DNA from: Escherichia coli
GTDB taxonomy: Bacteria > Pseudomonadota > Gammaproteobacteria > Enterobacterales > Enterobacteriaceae
Strand: one strand, 5' to 3'
DNA length: 64,000 bases
Assembly: GCF_048403405.1 (NCBI RefSeq)
Contig: NZ_CP183129.1
Shown here: positions 1 through 19,400 of the stretch, piece by piece
Position numbering within the stretch: the stretch's first letter is position 1
Layout: each line of letters begins with the position of its first letter
Position numbers and translations under genes: made by a program
The notes under the pieces: model-generated
Database searches by the model: none
The model's input: only the letters and a program-made list of their open reading frames with translations
Told to the model about the DNA's origin: nothing

Positions 1-2
1 TC

Positions 3-80
3 CAGGCAGAGCATGAGGAATTTGCATTTGATATGAGCGACAGCCACAAAGAGCGACTTGCGGCGTTTGATGGGGTATGA
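3..80 (+). CDS. 3' end of an unidentified ORF entering from upstream of the window (C-terminus ...QAEHEEFAFDMSDSHKERLAAFDGV)
   Basis: Open frame 3 from the window edge to TGA at 78-80; its stop overlaps the ATG of the next ORF (ATGA), suggesting translational coupling. No family recognised. Confidence 0.25.
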   Translation, partial: QAEHEEFAFDMSDSHKERLAAFDGV

Positions 81-367
81 CGAGAATGACTGAAACTGAT
101 CTACTAAAAATAATTCGCCGCATTACCGGAATCAGTCAGCAGCCTGACGAACAGGCTACACAGCCGGACAGCGTGATAGCCGAAAATTACGCGCGTGTGG
201 TGGCTGAGGTGATGCGCCGTGACGGTATTGAGCTTAACGGCGTGGATATGCGCAACATACGAACCAGAGTCCTTGAGTTGCTGGCATACCGTCGCCGTTC
301 TCAACAACGGAGGGAGAGCGCGAAAAATACTTACCAGTGGAAGAAGCCGGAACGACTGCGGCGGTAA
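77..367 (+). CDS. hypothetical protein, 96 aa, basic C-terminus; not recognised
   Basis: ORF-track ORF with E. coli-like codon composition, ATGA-coupled to the upstream frame. It sits where I expect yhdJ downstream of fis; no minus-strand ORF here resembles a methyltransferase. Confidence 0.4.
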   Translation: MTRMTETDLLKIIRRITGISQQPDEQATQPDSVIAENYARVVAEVMRRDGIELNGVDMRNIRTRVLELLAYRRRSQQRRESAKNTYQWKKPERLRR

Positions 368-1086
368 CTTGCTGATATTCCCGATAACGCAAAATTGCGT
401 TGGCTGGCATAGTGCAAATTTGCACGATGACCTAACCCATTGACTTTTCTTCAATCCTCAATTTTGAGGAGGCCGGAAGATAAAAAACTGTCAAAACTTG
501 TCATGCAAAACGTTACCAGCACGGCTATTGATTTATTCGGCCCCTGCAACTGCTCCCAGAATGGTGGGGATCTGAAATCCGACCCTGAAAAAGTGCGCAA
601 AAGTGGTACGCAAAAATTAGCGTCCAGCCACAGCCACCAGCTAGACAGAACGCCCAGAGCATTGTCAGTAACTGGTTGATATTCCCGACAGCCCCAAAAT
701 GGGTTGGCTGGTGGGTGAGTTGCAGATCTGCAACTCGACCATGAAACTACGGAAACTACCCGTAGTTTGGGTAGTAAGAGTAACACCCAGATTCTGGGGC
801 TTACTCGCGATACCCAAATAAAGGGTATCGGTGGACGAAATATTATTTCTCATATGTGAGCACCGAAGGCGGAATTCCGCCCTCGGTTATCTATCATGCA
901 CAGGGAGAAGCAGGGCAAAACTCTTGCCATGGCGTCTTCCGGACCGCTCACCACACCGTTTTTATCCCCATTAAAAATGAAAAAACACATCACTGCGGAG
1001 ACATAACCACTGGCAGGTATCTATTCTATTTATTATTGTTCGGTTTCGTTCGTGCTTATGTGCAGTCAGTGGTGCAGTCATTTTAA

Positions 1087-1125
1087 TAAAAAAGGCGCTT
1101 CCCCATGCCGAGTAGCGCCTTTTTA
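1087..1125. terminator. bidirectional rho-independent terminator downstream of fis
   Basis: A-run, 7-bp stem AGGCGCT/AGCGCCT, T-run; reads as hairpin plus U-tract on both strands, immediately 3' of the fis stop. Confidence 0.6.
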
Positions 1126-1148
1126 ATCAAGCATTTAGCTAACCTGAA

Positions 1149-1445
1149 TTAGTTCATGCCGTATTTTTTCAATTTTTTACGCAGCGTACCACGGTTGATG
1201 CCCATCATCAGCGCAGCACGGGTCTGGTTACCACGGGTGTATTGCATCACCATGTCCAACAGGGGCTGTTCTACTTCAGCCAGTACCAGCTCATAGAGGT
1301 CATTCACATCCTGACCGTTCAGTTGAGCAAAATAGTTCTTCAGTGCCTGTTTAACCGAGTCACGCAGGGGTTTTTGGGTTACCTGATCCTGAGAGTTAAC
1401 GGTAGAAACGGTCAGTACGTCAGAATTTACGCGTTGTTCGAACAT
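1149..1445 (-). CDS. fis: DNA-binding protein Fis (nucleoid-associated global regulator)
   Basis: 98-aa translation [21 protein letters not shown]...[13 protein letters not shown] matches Fis. Confidence 0.98.
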
Positions 1446-1470
1446 AGTTCTGTCAGCTCTTTATTTCTGT

Positions 1471-2436
1471 TTACGCAAAATTTTCGAAGTATGCCTCCAA
1501 CGCCTCCAGCTGTTCGCTGGCATCCTCAATGGCGTTGAATGTGCGCCGAAACTGGTCATTTGGAGCGTGTTCCTGGAGATACCAGGAAACGTGTTTACGT
1601 GCAATTCGGTACCCTTTTGCCGGACCATAAAAGTCATGCAGTTCCCGAACGTGCGCGCAAAGCAAGCGCTTAACCTCTGCCAAAGGCAGCGGGGGCAGCA
1701 ACTCCCCAGTGTCCAGATAATGCTGGATTTCCCGAAAGATCCAGGGTCTTCCCTGAGCTGCGCGGCCTATCATCAGGGCATCCGCCCCTGTATAGTCGAG
1801 CACAGCTCTGGCTTTAAGCGGGTCAGTAATGTCGCCATTCGCGATAACCGGAATGGAAACTTTCTGCTTAACTGCCCGAATACTGTCGTACTCAGCTTCT
1901 CCATTGAACAAACAGGCGCGTGTACGGCCATGAATGGTCAGAGCCTGAATGCCACAGTCTTCAGCCAGTTGGGCAATCTCTTCGCAGTTACGGTGTTCCG
2001 GTGCCCAGCCGGTGCGAATCTTCAGGGTAACAGGAACGTCCACTGCATTGACGACCTCGGTAAGGATCGATTTAACGACATCCGGGTACTGCAAGAGGGC
2101 TGAACCTGCGAGCTTGCGATTCACTTTTTTAGCCGGGCAACCCATATTGATATCAATAATCTGGGCACCGCTTTCCACGTTAATACGTGCTGCATCTGCC
2201 ATTTCTTTCGGATCGCTACCAGCAATTTGCACGGTGCGAATACCGGGTTCATCAATGTGCACCATCCGTAAACGAGATTTGTCGCTTTCCCAAACCTGAG
2301 GGTTAGAAGACATCATCTCGGATACTGTCAATCCGGCTCCCATCTCGTAGCACAACGTCCGAAAAGGTCTGTCTGTAATGCCAGCCATGGGCGCTGCGAT
2401 CAGGCGATTTCTGAGCTGATATTGTCCGATGCGCAT
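1471..2436 (-). CDS. dusB: tRNA-dihydrouridine synthase B
   Basis: 321 aa, Dus family motifs, immediately upstream of fis in the same operon. Confidence 0.95.
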
Positions 2437-8256: not shown

Positions 8257-9231
8257 TTAGTTAACCTTCACCAGCGTGCGACCCTGGATCTGGTTATTAA
8301 TGATGGCCTCGGCAAACTTCGGTGCCTCTGCCAGAGATATCTCTTGTGCCGCCTGGGTATAGAATGATTCCGGTAAATCGGCGACCAATCGCTGCCAGGC
8401 TTGTGCGCGGCGTGTTGGTGGCGTCATCACTGAATCCACCCCCTGTAAACGGACATTACGCAGAATAAATGGCATGACCGTGGTCGGCAGAGTGAAACCA
8501 CCCGCCAGACCACAGGCCGCCACGCAGCCGCCGTAATTCATTTGCGCCAGCACTTTTGCCAGCACTTTGTCGCCAACGGTGTCAATTGCCCCAGCCCAGA
8601 CTTGTTTTTCCAGAGGACGGGATTCGGCAAACTCATCGCGAGGGAGAATACGGCTGGCTCCTAAACTTTTCAGATATTCATGGGTACTTTCGCGACCAGA
8701 AACGGCAACGACCTGATAACCCAACTTATGCAGCAGCGCCACGGCGGTACTGCCGACGCCACCACTGGCACCCGTCACGACAATCTCCCCATCCTGCGGG
8801 CGAACACCGGCATCTTCCAGCGCCATCACACACAGCATGGCGGTAAAACCGGCAGTACCGATAATCATTGCTTTACGCGCGTCCAGCCCTTGCGGCATGG
8901 CAACCAGCCAGTCACCTTTCACTCGCGCCTGCTCCGCCAGCCCCCCCCAGTGGTTTTCACCAACGCCCCAGCCAGTGAGTAACACCTCCTGACCGGCATG
9001 AAAACGCGGATCTTCGCTGGTGCGTACAGTTCCGGCAAAATCGATCCCAGGAATCATCGGAAAATTACGGATGATTTTTCCCTTACCGGTAATTGCCAGC
9101 GCATCTTTGTAGTTCAGGCTCGACCAATGAACATCAACCGTGACATCGCCCTCCGGCAGGCAACTTTCGTCCAGAGTCTTTACCGATGCGAGAGTTTTGC
9201 CGTCCTGCTGTTCTAAAAGTAACGCCTGCAT
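8257..9231 (-). CDS. acuI: acrylyl-CoA reductase / MDR-family NADPH oxidoreductase
   Basis: 324 aa MDR-family translation (former yhdH); position between accB and csrD. Confidence 0.9.
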   Translation of the reverse strand: MQALLLEQQDGKTLASVKTLDESCLPEGDVTVDVHWSSLNYKDALAITGKGKIIRNFPMIPGIDFAGTVRTSEDPRFHAGQEVLLTGWGVGENHWGGLAEQARVKGDWLVAMPQGLDARKAMIIGTAGFTAMLCVMALEDAGVRPQDGEIVVTGASGGVGSTAVALLHKLGYQVVAVSGRESTHEYLKSLGASRILPRDEFAESRPLEKQVWAGAIDTVGDKVLAKVLAQMNYGGCVAACGLAGGFTLPTTVMPFILRNVRLQGVDSVMTPPTRRAQAWQRLVADLPESFYTQAAQEISLAEAPKFAEAIINNQIQGRTLVKVN

Positions 9232-16456: not shown

Positions 16457-19400
16457 GTGAGGCGATTGCCGGGGATATTACTGCTTACTGGAGCCGCGCT
16501 CGTTGTGATCGCTGCCCTGCTGGTTAGCGGCCTGCGTATTGCTTTACCGCATCTTGATGCCTGGCGTCCGGAAATCCTCAACAAAATAGAATCCGCGACT
16601 GGCATGCCGGTAGAAGCCAGTCAGCTCTCAGCCAGCTGGCAGAATTTTGGCCCGACGCTTGAAGCACACGACATCCGTGCAGAACTAAAGGATGGCGGCG
16701 AATTTTCGGTTAAACGCGTTACTCTTGCGCTAGATGTCTGGCAGAGCCTGTTACATATGCGCTGGCAGTTTCGCGACCTCACTTTCTGGCAGCTGCGCTT
16801 TCGCACCAACACTCCTATCACCAGCGGCGGTGGTAATGATAGCCTGGAAGCCAGTCACATCAGCGATCTGTTTCTTCGTCAGTTCGACCATTTTGATCTC
16901 CGCGACAGTGAAGTCAGTTTCCTGACGCCATCCGGTCAGCGCGCCGAGCTGGCGATCCCACAACTCACCTGGCTGAACGATCCACGTCGACACCGTGCAG
17001 AAGGCCTGGTAAGCCTCTCCAGCCTTACCGGACAGCACGGCGTGATGCAGGTGCGTATGGATTTGCGCGATGATGAGGGGTTGTTAAGCAATGGTCGCGT
17101 CTGGCTCCAGGCGGATGACATCGACCTGAAGCCGTGGCTCGGTAAATGGATGCAGGACAATATTGCGCTGGAAACGGCACAGTTCTCCCTTGAAGGCTGG
17201 ATGACGATCGACAAAGGCGATGTAACCGGTGGCGACGTCTGGCTGAAACAGGGCGGTGCCAGCTGGTTGGGCGAGAAGCAAACGCATACGCTGTCGGTGG
17301 ATAATCTGACCGCGCATATTACGCGTGAAAATCCGGGATGGCAGTTCTCTATTCCCGATACACGGATCACGATGGACGGCAAACCCTGGCCGAGCGGAGC
17401 ATTGACGCTGGCCTGGATACCGGAACAGGACGTTGGCGGCAAAGACAATAAACGCAGTGACGAACTCCGGATTCGCGCCAGTAATCTGGAGCTGGCAGGC
17501 CTGGAGGGCATACGCCCGCTGGCCGCGAAACTTTCACCTGCACTGGGTGATGTTTGGCGCTCCACACAACCGAGCGGCAAGATTAACACTCTGGCGCTGG
17601 ATATCCCGCTTCAGGCGGCAGACAAGACCCGTTTTCAGGCATCGTGGAGCGATCTGGCCTGGAAGCAATGGAAATTATTACCGGGTGCGGAACACTTCTC
17701 CGGGACGCTTTCCGGCAGCGTAGAAAATGGTTTGCTTACCGCGTCGATGAAACAGGCAAAGATGCCTTACGAAACGGTATTCCGTGCGCCACTGGAAATC
17801 GCCGACGGCCAGGCAACGATAAGCTGGCTGAACAATGACAAAGGTTTCCAGCTGGATGGGCGTAATATTGACGTTAAAGCCAAAGCAGTCCATGCGCGCG
17901 GCGGTTTTCGTTACCTGCAACCAGCTAACGATGAACCCTGGCTGGGTATTCTGGCTGGCATCAGTACCGATGATGGTTCACAAGCCTGGCGCTATTTCCC
18001 GGAAAACTTGATGGGTAAAGACCTGGTTGATTACTTAAGTGGCGCGATTCAGGGCGGTGTAGCGGATAACGCGACGCTGGTTTATGGTGGCAATCCGCAA
18101 CTCTTCCCCTATAAACACAACGAAGGTCAGTTTGAAGTGCTGGTGCCGCTGCGCAACGCGAAGTTTGCCTTCCAGCCGGACTGGCCTGCATTAACTAACC
18201 TTGATATTGAACTGGACTTTATTAACGACGGTTTATGGATGAAAACCGATGGCGTTAATCTGGGCGGCGTGCGCGCGAGTAATCTCACCGCAGTGATCCC
18301 TGACTACTCGAAAGAAAAACTGCTGATTGACGCTGACATTAAAGGTCCGGGTAAAGCCGTCGGCCCTTACTTTGATGAGACACCGCTGAAAGATTCTCTG
18401 GGTGCAACCCTGCAAGAACTCCAGCTCGACGGCGATGTGAATGCTCGCTTACATCTCGATATTCCGCTGAACGGCGAACTGGTAACCGCGAAAGGTGAAG
18501 TGACGCTGCGTAATAACAGTCTGTTTATCAAACCACTCGACAGCACCCTGAAAAATTTGAGCGGGAAATTCAGCTTTATTAATGGCGATCTGCAAAGTGA
18601 ACCACTGACAGCAAGCTGGTTTAATCAGCCGTTGAACGTGGATTTTTCCACCAAAGAAGGGGCAAAAGCCTACCAGGTTGCGGTGAATCTCAACGGTAAC
18701 TGGCAACCAGCGAAAACCGGCGTTTTGCCTGAAGCGGTGAACGAAGCATTAAGTGGCAGCGTGGCGTGGGATGGTAAAGTGGGCATTGATCTGCCTTATC
18801 ATGCTGGCGCGACCTATAACGTAGAGCTAAACGGCGATTTGAAGAATGTGAGCAGTCACTTACCTTCACCGTTAGCCAAACCTGCGGGTGAACCACTGCC
18901 GGTAAACGTTAAGGTTGATGGCAATCTCAACAGCTTTGAGTTAACCGGACAGGCTGGTGCAGATAACCATTTCAATAGTCGCTGGTTGCTTGGTCAAAAG
19001 CTGACGCTCGACCGTGCTATTTGGGCGGCAGACAGTAAAACGCTCCCGCCGTTGCCGGAACAAAGTGGCGTTGAACTCAATATGCCGCCGATGAATGGTG
19101 CCGAGTGGCTGGCCCTGTTCCAGAAAGGCGCGGCGGAGAGTGTCGGTGGTGCAGCGAGTTTCCCACAACACATAACGTTACGTACGCCTATGTTGTCGCT
19201 GGGAAATCAGCAATGGAATAACCTGAGCATTGTTTCGCAACCGACGGCAAATGGCACCCTGGTTGAGGCGCAAGGGCGTGAAATCAACGCCACGCTGGCG
19301 ATGCGTAATAACGCGCCGTGGCTGGCGAATATCAAATATCTTTATTACAACCCGAGCGTGGCGAAAACTCGTGGTGATTCAACACAGTCATCACCTTTCC

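What the first reader, a model, noticed from the sequence alone, without database searches (positions are those of the whole stretch)
364..780. Two ~70-bp imperfect direct repeats, each ending in a 12-bp palindrome, plus AAACTAC iterons
Copy A (364-432) and copy B (667-740) share the architecture ...GTAACTnGnTGATATTCCCGAnAnC-CAAAAT-GnGTTGGCTGG...-palindrome-CGAC/TGACC at roughly 75% identity. The palindromes are TGCAAATTTGCA and TGCAGATCTGCA. Just downstream (745-775) AAACTAC occurs as direct and inverted copies (GAAACTACGGAAACTACCCGTAGTTTGGGTAG). A duplicated unit with conserved flanks and palindromic ends suggests protein-binding iterons or operators, or a duplicated small-RNA or type I toxin-antitoxin-like locus; it is not a layout I can assign to a known element.
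Basis: seen in the sequence. Interest (0 to 1): 0.45.

Follow-up and report, generated by a model that had tools for sequence, protein, structure and literature searches.

The report
Reiterated hairpin units ending phage satellites
The two repeats are copies of a previously undescribed ~43-base unit, a likely IHF-binding sequence followed by a small hairpin, that is strung one to six times after the last gene of E. coli phage satellites (PICIs); its role is still unproven.

Summary
Window 364-432 and 667-740 are imperfect direct repeats: 44 nt ungapped at 82%, and 53 identical of 74 aligned columns. A third, weaker copy lies at 433-476.

All three sit in the non-coding right end of a ~15 kb capsid-forming satellite (PICI) integrated at the 3' end of fis. 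The first copy starts at the stop codon of the satellite's last gene.

Each copy is one unit of a family with three parts:
- a conserved lead, TAAC-nnn-YTGAT-ATT, whose reverse complement is the IHF consensus WATCARNNNNTTR;
- a hairpin whose stem sequence varies but stays paired (25 stem variants, clear covariation);
- a GGCYGG tail.

A covariance model found 111 units in 507 kb of related loci. All are co-oriented with that last gene and lie within ~650 nt after it. None occurs elsewhere in the 64 kb window.

Related satellites carry 0-6 units in mosaic order, so the array is accessory. The duplication here is a modular reiteration.

The repeats are not lambda-type cos sites, not replication iterons, not any Rfam family, and probably not a small toxin gene. 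The 'AAACTAC iterons' are the arms of a hairpin.

My best guess is a satellite-specific analogue of IHF-binding BIME/RIP elements. An RNA-level role in the 3' UTR is not excluded.

The parts
77..367 (+). Last conserved gene of the satellite (96 aa; PHROG phrog_1561; homolog of EcCICFT073 c1504). Its stop codon is the first TAA of unit 1.
   Evidence: ORF listing. phrog_1561 at E = 1e-53. No Pfam match. 72-85% identical to the last ORFs of the L006 and L003 satellites. The AlphaFold model is three helices plus a basic tail, with no fold match.
365..407 (+).
   Evidence: Model R1 scores 50.0 bits. The reverse complement matches WATCARNNNNTTR. It is contiguous with the ORF, as in L003, L071 and L092.
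408..429 (.). Palindrome A, CATAGTGCAAA|TTTGCACGATG.
   Evidence: Inverted repeat I14; coordinates. The same block follows A-type units in L079, L108 and L140.
433..476 (+).
   Evidence: Model R1 scores 39.1 bits. It resembles the internal units of EcCICFT073 (L006 8706 and 8805).
477..667 (.). Lineage-specific spacer between unit 2 and unit 3.
   Evidence: Found only in L013/L168 (100%) and partly in L140 (81% over 74 nt) among 180 loci. In E. coli, about 41 genomes carry it.
669..711 (+). A Chi sequence (GCTGGTGG) lies at 707-714.
   Evidence: Model R1 scores 56.1 bits. IHF consensus match. It marks the start of the module at 668-984 that is ~86% conserved in other satellites.
717..834 (+). 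Highly conserved ~118-bp core. It holds palindrome B (717-736, containing TGCAGATCTGCA), the AAACTAC hairpin (744-768), and a long irregular hairpin (about 757-827) that includes GATACCC-AAATAAA-GGGTATC (809-829).
   Evidence: More than 95% identical in 39 sequence variants from IMG/VR and E. coli. RNA fold of 742-838 is -42.6 kcal/mol, z = -5.5. One compensatory change is seen, GATACCC/GGGTATC to GATCCCC/GGGGATC, in L152.
862..887 (.). G+C-rich palindrome ACCGAAGGCGGAA|TTCCGCCCTCGGT.
   Evidence: Inverted repeat I12. Conserved in L003-type modules, with the single mismatch flipped to the other arm.
1036..1080 (+). Attachment-arm elements: two TYGTTCG repeats (1036-1042, 1046-1052) and the doubled motif TGTGCAGTCAGTGGTGCAGTCA (1059-1080).
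   Evidence: Coordinates. [quoted passage not shown] The Buttiauxella fis satellite L009 has the identical doubled motif.
1086..1165 (.). The 80-bp attL/attR identity block: the fis terminator plus the fis 3' end (TTAGTTCATGCCGTA at 1149-1163). This is the right boundary of the satellite.
   Evidence: Longest common block between L001 5801-5880 and 21086-21165. It matches the published fis-PICI identity block TACGGCATGAACTAA (PMC10111431).

Best explanation
What it is (shown). The two repeats are units 1 and 3 of a three-unit array in the non-coding right end of a fis-integrated, capsid-forming PICI satellite. A unit is ~43 nt and has three parts: a sequence-conserved lead (TAAC-nnn-YTGAT-ATT-yyCG) whose reverse complement is the IHF consensus; a hairpin conserved in pairing but not in sequence; and a GGCYGG tail. 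Units occur only directly downstream of, and co-oriented with, the last conserved satellite gene (phrog_1561 / c1504). Copy number runs from 0 to 6 and the order is mosaic.

How the duplication arose (inferred from comparison). It came from modular reiteration and recombination between satellites. Copy A is contiguous with the gene, as in single-unit relatives. Copy B is contiguous with the conserved downstream core, also as in single-unit relatives. L071 is exactly the A-lead/B-tail fusion expected from recombination between the two copies.

How it most likely works (inferred, not shown). The leads are IHF-binding, DNA-bending sites next to hairpin-prone palindromes. That would make the array a satellite-borne analogue of the IHF-binding BIME-1/RIP elements found at the 3' ends of E. 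coli transcription units. On this reading it is an accessory architectural and insulating region between the late operon and the attachment arm, and its repeats also serve as recombination joints for shuffling right-end modules. It is not required for integration or packaging.
For: Context:
- Annotation of the identical locus in strain D8 shows int, an HTH regulator, primase, capsid, protease, portal, HNH, TerS, TerL and the 96-aa ORF, lying between yhdJ and fis.
- The attL/attR identity block is 80 bp.

Unit specificity:
- Model R1 finds three hits in the 64 kb window (56, 50 and 39 bits; the next best is 11 bits).
- It finds 111 hits in 507 kb of 91 sources, all on the + strand and all within ~650 nt after the ORF stop.
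- The exact internal lead occurs in 40 IMG/VR loci; 39 of them have the ORF homolog directly upstream on the same strand.

Hairpin:
- 25 distinct stem sequences were found.
- On the model-fitted alignment, 75% of cells are paired. There are 52 double-sided changes against 19.2 +/- 2.8 in shuffles. The covariation score is 0.446 against 0.125 (0 of 500 shuffles reach it) and is higher than in all slid controls.

IHF consensus:
- Information content is high at T1 A2 A3, T9 G10 A11 T12 and T14 T15, and low at columns 5-8. This is the pattern of YAA-NNNN-YTGAT-W.
- 39 of 52 distinct units match the consensus exactly.
- Three consensus matches fall in the 800-bp right end, against 0.25 per kb in the window overall.

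Mosaic origin:
- The single unit of L003/L004 aligns to both window copies.
- L071 is an A/B hybrid.
- L140 keeps the same A...spacer...B layout at ~80% identity.

Dispensable: the Buttiauxella and Pluralibacter fis satellites go from the ORF stop straight to the attachment arm.

No plus-strand RNA signature: among hairpins with one internal mismatch, 14 have G.T on the + strand and 25 have A.C.

Analogy: REP/BIME elements bind IHF, the BIME-1 linker carries an IHF site, and they act as terminators, mRNA stabilisers and topological insulators (PMC3333891).
Against: - IHF binding is inferred from a degenerate consensus only. The match could be a coincidence of one ancestral sequence; I estimate roughly a 0.5% chance for a conserved 13-mer in a 43-nt unit, which is not negligible after looking at many motifs.
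- Thirteen of 52 units depart from the consensus, and the first unit after the stop codon is often the poorest match.
- The strict co-orientation with the operon, the overlap with the stop codon and an invariant A in the hairpin loop (column 29) fit an RNA-level role at least as well.
- Covariation was counted on an alignment fitted to the model, and the units are related by descent, so the shuffle control overstates significance (caveat).
- The units fail several defining features of REP/BIME (see the membership test).
- No experiment bears on function.
Confidence: 0.5

Rival explanations
1. RNA-level element. The units and the conserved core are stem-loops in the long 3' UTR of the satellite's late operon. 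They would protect the mRNA from 3' exonucleases, attenuate read-through towards the attachment site and int after circularisation, or give rise to a 3'-UTR-derived small RNA.
For: - All 111 units are co-oriented with the operon and begin at or just after the stop codon.
- The hairpin covaries, and a loop position is an invariant A on the + strand.
- Window 360-1000 folds far better than shuffles (z = -7.2), as does 742-838 (z = -5.5).
- No promoter lies between the ORF and the units, so they would be co-transcribed.
Against: - The minus strand folds equally well (z = -6.75).
- There is no excess of G.U over A.C on the + strand (14 against 25).
- No convincing intrinsic terminator closes the region in the window (893-975, z = -0.3).
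- There is no Rfam match.
- There is no antisense target inside the satellite beyond chance-level 10-12-mers.
- An RNA role does not explain why the conserved lead copies the IHF consensus.
Confidence: 0.25
2. Neutral scars. The units are leftovers of repeated illegitimate or homologous recombination at the end of the last gene, for example deletions across tandem satellites. They would be carried along without a function of their own.
For: - Copy number runs from 0 to 6 in mosaic order, and units are absent from distant relatives.
- The gene's own 3' end (GAAGAAGCCGGAA, 340-352) resembles a unit tail (GAGGAGGCCGGAA, 466-478; repeat D4). Many internal units are preceded by GGCGCGG, which resembles the gene's CGGCGG.
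- Tandem fis satellites are documented (PMC10111431).
Against: - Every unit starts at the same TAAC boundary.
- Stems change by paired substitutions rather than decaying.
- The lead is conserved at specific positions while columns 5-8 drift.
- The A...spacer...B layout persists at ~80% identity of the spacer.
Confidence: 0.15
3. Binding sites (iterons or operators) for a satellite-encoded protein, such as the adjacent 96-aa protein, AlpA or the primase.
For: - The units are tightly linked to the 96-aa gene (39 of 40 loci).
- That protein has a conserved basic C-terminal tail.
- The AAACTAC/GTAGTTT arms are conserved in sequence across arrays while the centre between them varies.
Against: - Homologs of the protein exist without any units.
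- The palindromes differ in sequence from unit to unit, which a single dimeric protein would not tolerate.
- Spacing is irregular.
- The published origin of EcCICFT073 lies next to pri, not at the right end (PMC6092414, context).
- The protein model shows no recognisable DNA-binding fold.
Confidence: 0.08
4. A small-protein or type I toxin-like gene in the conserved core (741-821, MKLRKLPVVWVVRVTPRFWGLLAIPK), with the surrounding hairpins controlling its translation.
For: - The 9-nt indel inside it keeps the reading frame.
- Several substitutions are synonymous in this frame (CTA to TTA, TTC to TTT, CTC to CTT, ATA to ATC).
- The peptide is partly hydrophobic.
Against: - The synonymous/non-synonymous count is 7/8, the same as in frame +2.
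- The ATG is destroyed by a 1-nt deletion in L140, and the stop codon is replaced by TAT, TTT or TAC in many variants, giving unrelated extensions.
- No Shine-Dalgarno sequence precedes the ATG (read directly from the sequence).
- RefSeq annotates nothing there in the genomes examined.
- An Arg and a Pro interrupt the hydrophobic stretch.
Confidence: 0.05

Closest known systems
REP/BIME elements of E. coli, especially BIME-1 (RIP/RIB), which combine an IHF-binding linker with palindromic units at the 3' ends of transcription units
   Same: Both are short hairpin-forming units in non-coding DNA just after the last gene of an operon. Both have variable copy number from locus to locus. Both combine an IHF consensus with palindromes. 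REPs also serve as recombination and insertion targets, and the satellite units are proposed to. (REP/BIME properties from PMC3333891.)
   Different: - There is no GTAG tetranucleotide 5' of the unit's hairpin foot.
- Units are all in direct orientation, not alternating REP/iREP.
- Stem sequences are free to vary (25 variants), whereas REPs fall into three conserved classes.
- There are only a handful of copies, all confined to satellite right ends, rather than hundreds spread over the genome.
- No associated RAYT transposase is present.
The two cos sites (cos1, cos2) of the E. coli satellite EcCICFT073
   Same: Both are a duplicated non-coding element near the packaging genes of an E. coli PICI. 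[quoted passage not shown]
   Different: - The EcCICFT073 cos sites carry lambda cosN (GGGCGGCGACCT) and flank rppA, at L006 7558 (+) and 8297 (-).
- The unit array lies separately, after c1504, at L006 8652-8850.
- No cosN-like sequence within 2 mismatches exists in window 1-1200.
IHF sites and arm-type repeats of tyrosine-integrase attP sites (lambda P arm; the doubled motif of helper-embedded PICIs)
   Same: Both involve matches to the IHF consensus near a satellite attachment site. This satellite has genuine arm elements: the doubled motif at 1059-1080, TYGTTCG repeats, and an IHF consensus at 1125 inside the identity block.
   Different: - The units lie 440-800 bp from the crossover region, far outside the ~80 and ~135 bp arm geometry.
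- They travel with the last late gene rather than with the integrase type. The same units occur in satellites at clpS, phoQ, fis and inside prophage terL.
PeSL cassettes of T4-type phages (conserved short motif plus stem-loop flanking shuffled modules). This comparison is from my own knowledge and was not checked here.
   Same: Both are a conserved lead plus a stem-loop repeated at module boundaries in a hyperplastic, mosaic region, where they plausibly mediate recombination.
   Different: PeSLs contain a functional early promoter and flank protein-coding ORFs. The satellite units show no promoter and flank non-coding segments.

Membership tests
PICI satellite (fis-integrating, capsid-forming type) | Integrase, AlpA-type regulator and primase at the left; unidirectional organisation; size ~10-15 kb. 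| tested here: met
   Annotation of the identical locus in strain D8: int, HTH regulator, Icd-like protein, DUF4222 protein and primase, most on one strand (4 of the 21 element genes lie on the other); about 15.3 kb between the attachment sites.
PICI satellite (fis-integrating, capsid-forming type) | Own capsid and packaging genes (capsid, protease, portal, connector, HNH, TerS, TerL) but no tail genes. | tested here: met
   All are present at L001 14055-20080 and no tail genes are annotated. This matches the description of cf-PICIs (10.1101/2022.09.08.507074).
PICI satellite (fis-integrating, capsid-forming type) | Integration at the 3' end of fis, with an identity block containing TACGGCATGAACTAA. 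| tested here: met
   The 80-bp identity block at window 1086-1165 contains the reverse complement at 1149-1163 (PMC10111431).
PICI satellite (fis-integrating, capsid-forming type) | Induction, excision and transfer by a helper phage. | not testable with these tools
   Needs experiment.
Lambda-type cos site | cosN sequence GGGCGGCGACCT (or a close variant) with cosQ upstream. | tested here: not met
   No match within 2 mismatches in window 1-1200. The same search finds both EcCICFT073 cos sites and the helper prophage cos in L006.
Replication iterons | Several near-identical short direct repeats at regular (helical) spacing, next to an AT-rich stretch and the initiator gene. | tested here: not met
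   Units are 43 nt and 72-82% alike. Their starts are 68 and 236 bp apart, about 8.5 kb from the primase gene, and they are absent from related satellites.
IHF binding site | Match to WATCARNNNNTTR. | tested here: met
   Exact matches at 365-377 and 669-681 (minus strand). 39 of 52 distinct units match, and the conservation profile follows the consensus.
IHF binding site | Physical binding and bending by IHF. | not testable with these tools
   Needs EMSA, footprinting or ChIP.
REP/BIME | A 20-40 nt imperfect palindrome with a conserved GTAG 5' of the hairpin foot. | tested here: not met
   The unit lead ends in ..CGAnAA before the stem, with no GTAG. GTAG does occur in the conserved core (762-765, 771-774), but that core is single-copy.
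REP/BIME | Pairs in alternating orientation; hundreds of copies dispersed in the genome. | tested here: not met
   All 111 units are in the same orientation and confined to satellite ends. There are only 3 in the 64 kb window.
Type I toxin-antitoxin | A conserved small hydrophobic ORF with a maintained start and stop. | tested here: not met
   For ORF 741-821: the ATG is lost in L140, the stop codon is not conserved, and the synonymous/non-synonymous count of 7/8 is not frame-specific.
Type I toxin-antitoxin | An overlapping or adjacent antisense small RNA. | tested here: inconclusive
   No Rfam family matches. Only weak promoter-like and terminator-like matches occur on the minus strand, at background level. 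No expression data are available.
Known RNA families (Rfam 15) | A covariance-model match at or near the gathering score. | tested here: not met
   Window 1-1500: the only matches are to the fis terminator (STnc40, 25.6 bits against a gathering score of 45) and noise. L006 7400-9300: nothing at E <= 1.

The most novel reading that the evidence does not exclude
The unit array and the >95%-conserved 118-bp core are a dedicated cis-regulatory device of E. coli phage satellites. One possibility is an IHF-bent, hairpin-rich gate between the end of the late operon and attP-int. Such a gate would control whether transcription runs on into the integrase and regulatory genes once the element has circularised. 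Alternatively, the region could be the source of a satellite RNA that acts on the helper phage. Either way it would be a new functional module, shared by classical and capsid-forming PICIs, that no study has addressed.
Probability: 0.15. Interest if true: 0.6.

Novelty: new variant of a known kind. Interest (0 to 1): 0.4.

Why it matters
PICI satellites are intensively studied as drivers of gene transfer, virulence and phage defence. Published maps, however, stop at the last gene.

This analysis shows that the 0.3-1 kb between that gene and the attachment arm is organised, not random. It holds a satellite-specific repeat family with a covarying hairpin and an IHF-like lead, followed by a nearly invariant 118-bp core shared by satellites with different integrases and packaging strategies.

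If functional, this could bear on several open points:
- how late transcription is insulated from int and from host genes such as fis;
- how right-end cargo modules are shuffled;
- whether IHF takes part in the satellite life cycle.

If not functional, it is still a useful marker for delimiting PICIs and tracing their recombination history.

Tried and rejected
- Second cos site, as in EcCICFT073: rejected. cosN is absent here, and in CFT073 the cos sites are physically separate from the units.
- Known RNA family: no Rfam hit, even at permissive E-values, in the window or in the CFT073-type array.
- Intrinsic terminator closing the region: L003-type modules have a possible stem followed by CGATTTTTTAT. 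The fold of the window equivalent (893-975) is no better than shuffles, and the scan gives only background-level hits, all on the minus strand.
- Strand of a putative RNA: both strands fold equally well. The G.T versus A.C count in 128 distinct hairpins shows no plus-strand bias.
- Protein coding in the conserved core: no frame-specific constraint.
- Antisense targets of the lead or core within the satellite: only chance-level 10-12-mers.
- Function of the adjacent 96-aa protein: no Pfam domain, no PDB sequence match, and the AlphaFold model (pLDDT 77) has no Foldseek match below E = 1. The PHROG family is of unknown function.
- More distant relatives: the genome-contig scan returned only 5 loci, none with units.
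- Literature: no paper in the library contains any of six diagnostic sequences. The PICI papers I read discuss cos, att and gene zones but not this region.
- Resemblances considered by eye and dropped without a formal test:
  - LexA box (CTG-N10-CAG only in a hypothetical hybrid of the two copies);
  - RfaH ops (GGCGGTAAC against GGCGGTAG, which breaks the C3:G8 pair);
  - the phiX174 origin core (TTGATATT);
  - IS200/IS605 ends;
  - CRISPR repeats;
  - lambda nut boxA/boxB with the Arg-rich tail of the 96-aa protein. Homologs of that protein exist without units, which argues against a dedicated pair.
Full report
**Observation.** Window 364-407 and 668-711 are a 44-nt ungapped direct repeat at 82% identity, with E = 5e-8 in a self-BLAST of window 1-1150. 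With gaps, 364-432 against 668-741 gives 53 identical of 74 columns.

The 12-bp palindromes are at 413-424 and 721-732. They extend to 22 bp (408-429, one mismatch) and 20 bp (717-736, perfect). The two palindromes differ by changes on both arms that preserve pairing.

AAACTAC is at 744-750 and 753-759, with GTAGTTT at 762-768. Together they form a 9-bp stem (AAACTACGG / CCGTAGTTT). The 'direct repeat' is a 9-bp tandem duplication that some relatives lack.

**Context.** Window 1149-1445 (-) is fis, followed by dusB, prmA and panF. Thirty-eight complete E. coli genomes carry window 1-1150 almost identically.

In strain D8 the stretch between yhdJ and fis holds a ~15 kb element. Its genes are integrase, an HTH regulator, an Icd-like protein, a DUF4222 protein, primase, major capsid, prohead protease, portal, connector, HNH, TerS (P27 family), TerL and a final 96-aa ORF. 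This is the gene set of a capsid-forming PICI. Integration at the 3' end of fis is a documented PICI site.

attL and attR share an 80-bp block (window 1086-1165 = L001 5801-5880) that includes the published identity block. Everything in the finding therefore lies in the non-coding right end of a phage satellite. Copy A begins at the stop codon (365-367) of the satellite's last gene (window 77-367).

**Not cos sites.** EcCICFT073 is known to carry two cos sites, and the reason is an open question. I located them in CFT073 by their lambda cosN sequence: L006 7558 (+) and 8297 (-), flanking rppA.

They are distinct from the region after the last gene, c1504 (L006 8373-8654), which is where unit-like repeats sit. 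No cosN-like sequence exists in window 1-1200.

**The unit family.** In satellites at clpS (L003) and inside a prophage terL gene (L004), a single unit follows the homologous last gene. That one unit aligns both to copy A, continuing leftwards into the gene, and to copy B, continuing rightwards into a ~320-bp module. The window therefore has about 304 extra bases between two copies of what is a single unit elsewhere.

Eighty IMG/VR loci encoding homologs of the 96-aa protein gave 35 distinct downstream regions. Most contain 1-6 co-oriented units.

A unit is:
- a lead, TAAC-nnn-YTGAT-ATT-yyCG-nAA;
- a hairpin with a 4-7 bp stem and a 3-6 nt loop;
- a tail, RGGCYGG.

I found 25 different stems, for example ACGCA/TGCGT, CCTCA/TGAGG, CAGCC/GGCTG, TCCCCC/GGGGGA, TTCGCC/GGCGAA, GTGCA/TGCAC and CGGCTC/GAGCCG.

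A covariance model built from 33 units finds exactly three units in the 64 kb window: 669-711 (56 bits), 365-407 (50 bits) and 433-476 (39 bits). The next hit scores 11 bits. These three were in the training set, so the informative result is the absence of other hits.

Across 91 sources (507 kb) the model finds 111 units. All are on the strand of the last gene and all lie within ~650 nt after its stop.

On the model-fitted alignment, 75% of cells pair and 52 cells have changes on both sides, against 19.2 +/- 2.8 in shuffles. The covariation score is 0.446 against 0.125, and every slid control is lower. The usual caveat applies: the sequences are related and the alignment was fitted to the model.

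An exact search for the internal lead in 2.9 million viral contigs returned 40 loci. Thirty-nine have the gene homolog directly upstream on the same strand. The exception (L108) is a rearranged locus with a distant homolog in the opposite orientation.

**The lead matches the IHF consensus.** The reverse complement of TAAC-nnn-YTGAT-A is T-ATCAR-nnnG-TTA, that is, WATCARNNNNTTR.

The conservation profile of 52 distinct units follows this pattern. T1 A2 A3, T9 G10 A11 T12 and T14 T15 are nearly invariant, and columns 5-8 are variable. Thirty-nine of 52 units match exactly.

In the 64 kb window the consensus occurs 16 times (0.25 per kb). Three of these fall in the 800-bp right end: the two copies, and one inside the att identity block. 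Satellites with other integrases also show an IHF consensus next to their doubled arm motifs, on the opposite strand, so use of IHF by these elements is plausible. Binding itself is untested.

**DNA or RNA?**
- Both strands of 360-1000 fold about 7 standard deviations better than shuffles. This reflects the density of palindromes and does not pick a strand.
- Among 128 distinct hairpins in the right-end regions, those with one internal mismatch show G.T on the + strand 14 times and A.C 25 times. There is thus no signature of selection on a plus-strand RNA.
- Promoter-like and terminator-like matches are at background level.
- No convincing terminator closes the region in the window.
- Rfam has nothing.

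Against that, strict co-orientation with the operon, overlap with the stop codon and an invariant loop A remain compatible with an RNA role. I rank the DNA-level (IHF, architectural) reading first and the RNA reading second.

**Accessory and mosaic.** The fis satellites of Buttiauxella and Pluralibacter go from the stop of the homologous gene directly to the attachment arm or to other genes, with no units. The units are therefore not needed for integration, excision or packaging.

The conserved core is joined to at least six different lead/hairpin variants, or to none. L071 is precisely the copy-A lead and hairpin fused to the copy-B tail. L140 keeps the window's A...spacer...B layout while its spacer has diverged to ~80% identity.

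The spacer at 477-667 is otherwise private to this lineage and occurs in about 41 E. coli genomes. The gene's own 3' end resembles a unit tail (repeat D4), which suggests that units arose by reiteration of the gene end.

**Conserved core.** Window 717-834 is more than 95% identical in 39 variants drawn from satellites of different types. It contains palindrome B, the AAACTAC hairpin and a long irregular hairpin (-42.6 kcal/mol, z = -5.5). One stem shows a two-step compensatory change.

A 26-codon ORF (741-821) lies in the core, but coding is not supported:
- the synonymous/non-synonymous count of 7/8 equals that of another frame;
- the ATG is lost in L140;
- the stop codon is not conserved.

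**The adjacent protein.** It belongs to phrog_1561, of unknown function. It has no Pfam domain. Its model is three helices plus a basic tail ending in a conserved YQWKKPE motif. There is no structural match. It gives no lead on the units.

**Comparison with known systems.** The nearest analogy is BIME-1/RIP: an IHF site plus palindromic units after the last gene of an operon, with variable copy number. The units fail the defining REP features: no GTAG, no alternating orientation, no genome-wide spread, and no conserved stem classes. The relation is therefore 'works like', not membership.

No paper in the library contains the diagnostic sequences. The PICI literature I read does not describe this region.

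**Verdict.** This is a real, conserved and apparently undescribed repeat family specific to the right ends of Escherichia PICI satellites. The duplication in the window is a modular reiteration. Function is inferred, not shown. Interest is moderate.

Noticed in passing
window 1059-1080 and L001 6008-6033: This fis satellite has a doubled motif, TGTGCAGTCAGTGGTGCAGTCA, in two co-oriented copies about 80 bp and about 135 bp either side of the crossover region. That is the same geometry reported for the TGTATTGC doubled motif of helper-embedded PICIs. That paper states the motif was not found in fis PICIs (PMC10111431), so fis PICIs appear to have their own sequence version. The Buttiauxella fis satellite (L009) carries the identical motif.
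   Followed up: partly
window 1036-1052; L003 about 18410-18440; L006 about 9050-9085: Two or three TTGTTCN repeats at ~10-bp spacing lie just inside the doubled arm motif in several satellites. They could be binding sites for the excision factor (AlpA). From memory, they also recall the P4 type I iteron TGTTCACC.
   Followed up: no
window 707-714 (+) and 634-641 (-): A Chi sequence (GCTGGTGG) is embedded in the tail of copy B and is conserved in many variants (L003, L136 and others). A second Chi lies on the other strand in the spacer. L003 has a further Chi about 330 bp downstream. This may simply follow the host's Chi bias.
   Followed up: no
L004 6992-19491: A satellite is inserted inside the large-terminase gene of a lambdoid prophage, with the two halves of the gene annotated as pseudogenes. 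This is the known helper-embedded PICI configuration.
   Followed up: no
L003 about 17010-17060: A cos-like sequence, GGGTCCTCCCGG...ACGGGGCGGGAGCGGCGCGG, lies upstream of the TerS-like DUF1441 gene of this satellite. It is a variant of lambda cosQ/cosN and sits at the position where EcCICFT073 has cos1.
   Followed up: no
L020 / L149 (second copy of the core): The conserved core occurs twice in these elements. One copy is interrupted after TTTTGGGGCT by a sequence beginning GGCTTTGTTGAATAAATC, which from memory is an IS903-type inverted repeat.
   Followed up: no
window 77-367 and homologs in L007-L011, L108: The C-terminal tail of the last satellite protein is conserved across genera (..ERHRQRM..YQWKKPE..RR). 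From memory, its Arg-rich stretch followed by QWK resembles the RNA-binding arginine-rich motif of lambda N. No test was possible.
   Followed up: no
window 762-805: Inside the conserved core, GTAG (771-774) directly precedes a ~35-nt imperfect palindrome (TAAGAGTAAC..CCCAGATTCTGGGG..CTTACTCG). This is the GTAG-plus-imperfect-palindrome layout of REP elements, although it is single-copy here.
   Followed up: no
window 1088-1155 (-): A weak Rfam match to Salmonella sRNA STnc40 (25.6 bits against a gathering score of 45). It is the fis terminator hairpin inside the att identity block.
   Followed up: no
window 28-50: A 23-nt stretch inside the end of terL (TTGATATGAGCGACAGCCACAAA) is 83% identical to the lead region of copy B (676-698). 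Model R1 gives it only 9.5 bits, so it is probably chance.
   Followed up: partly
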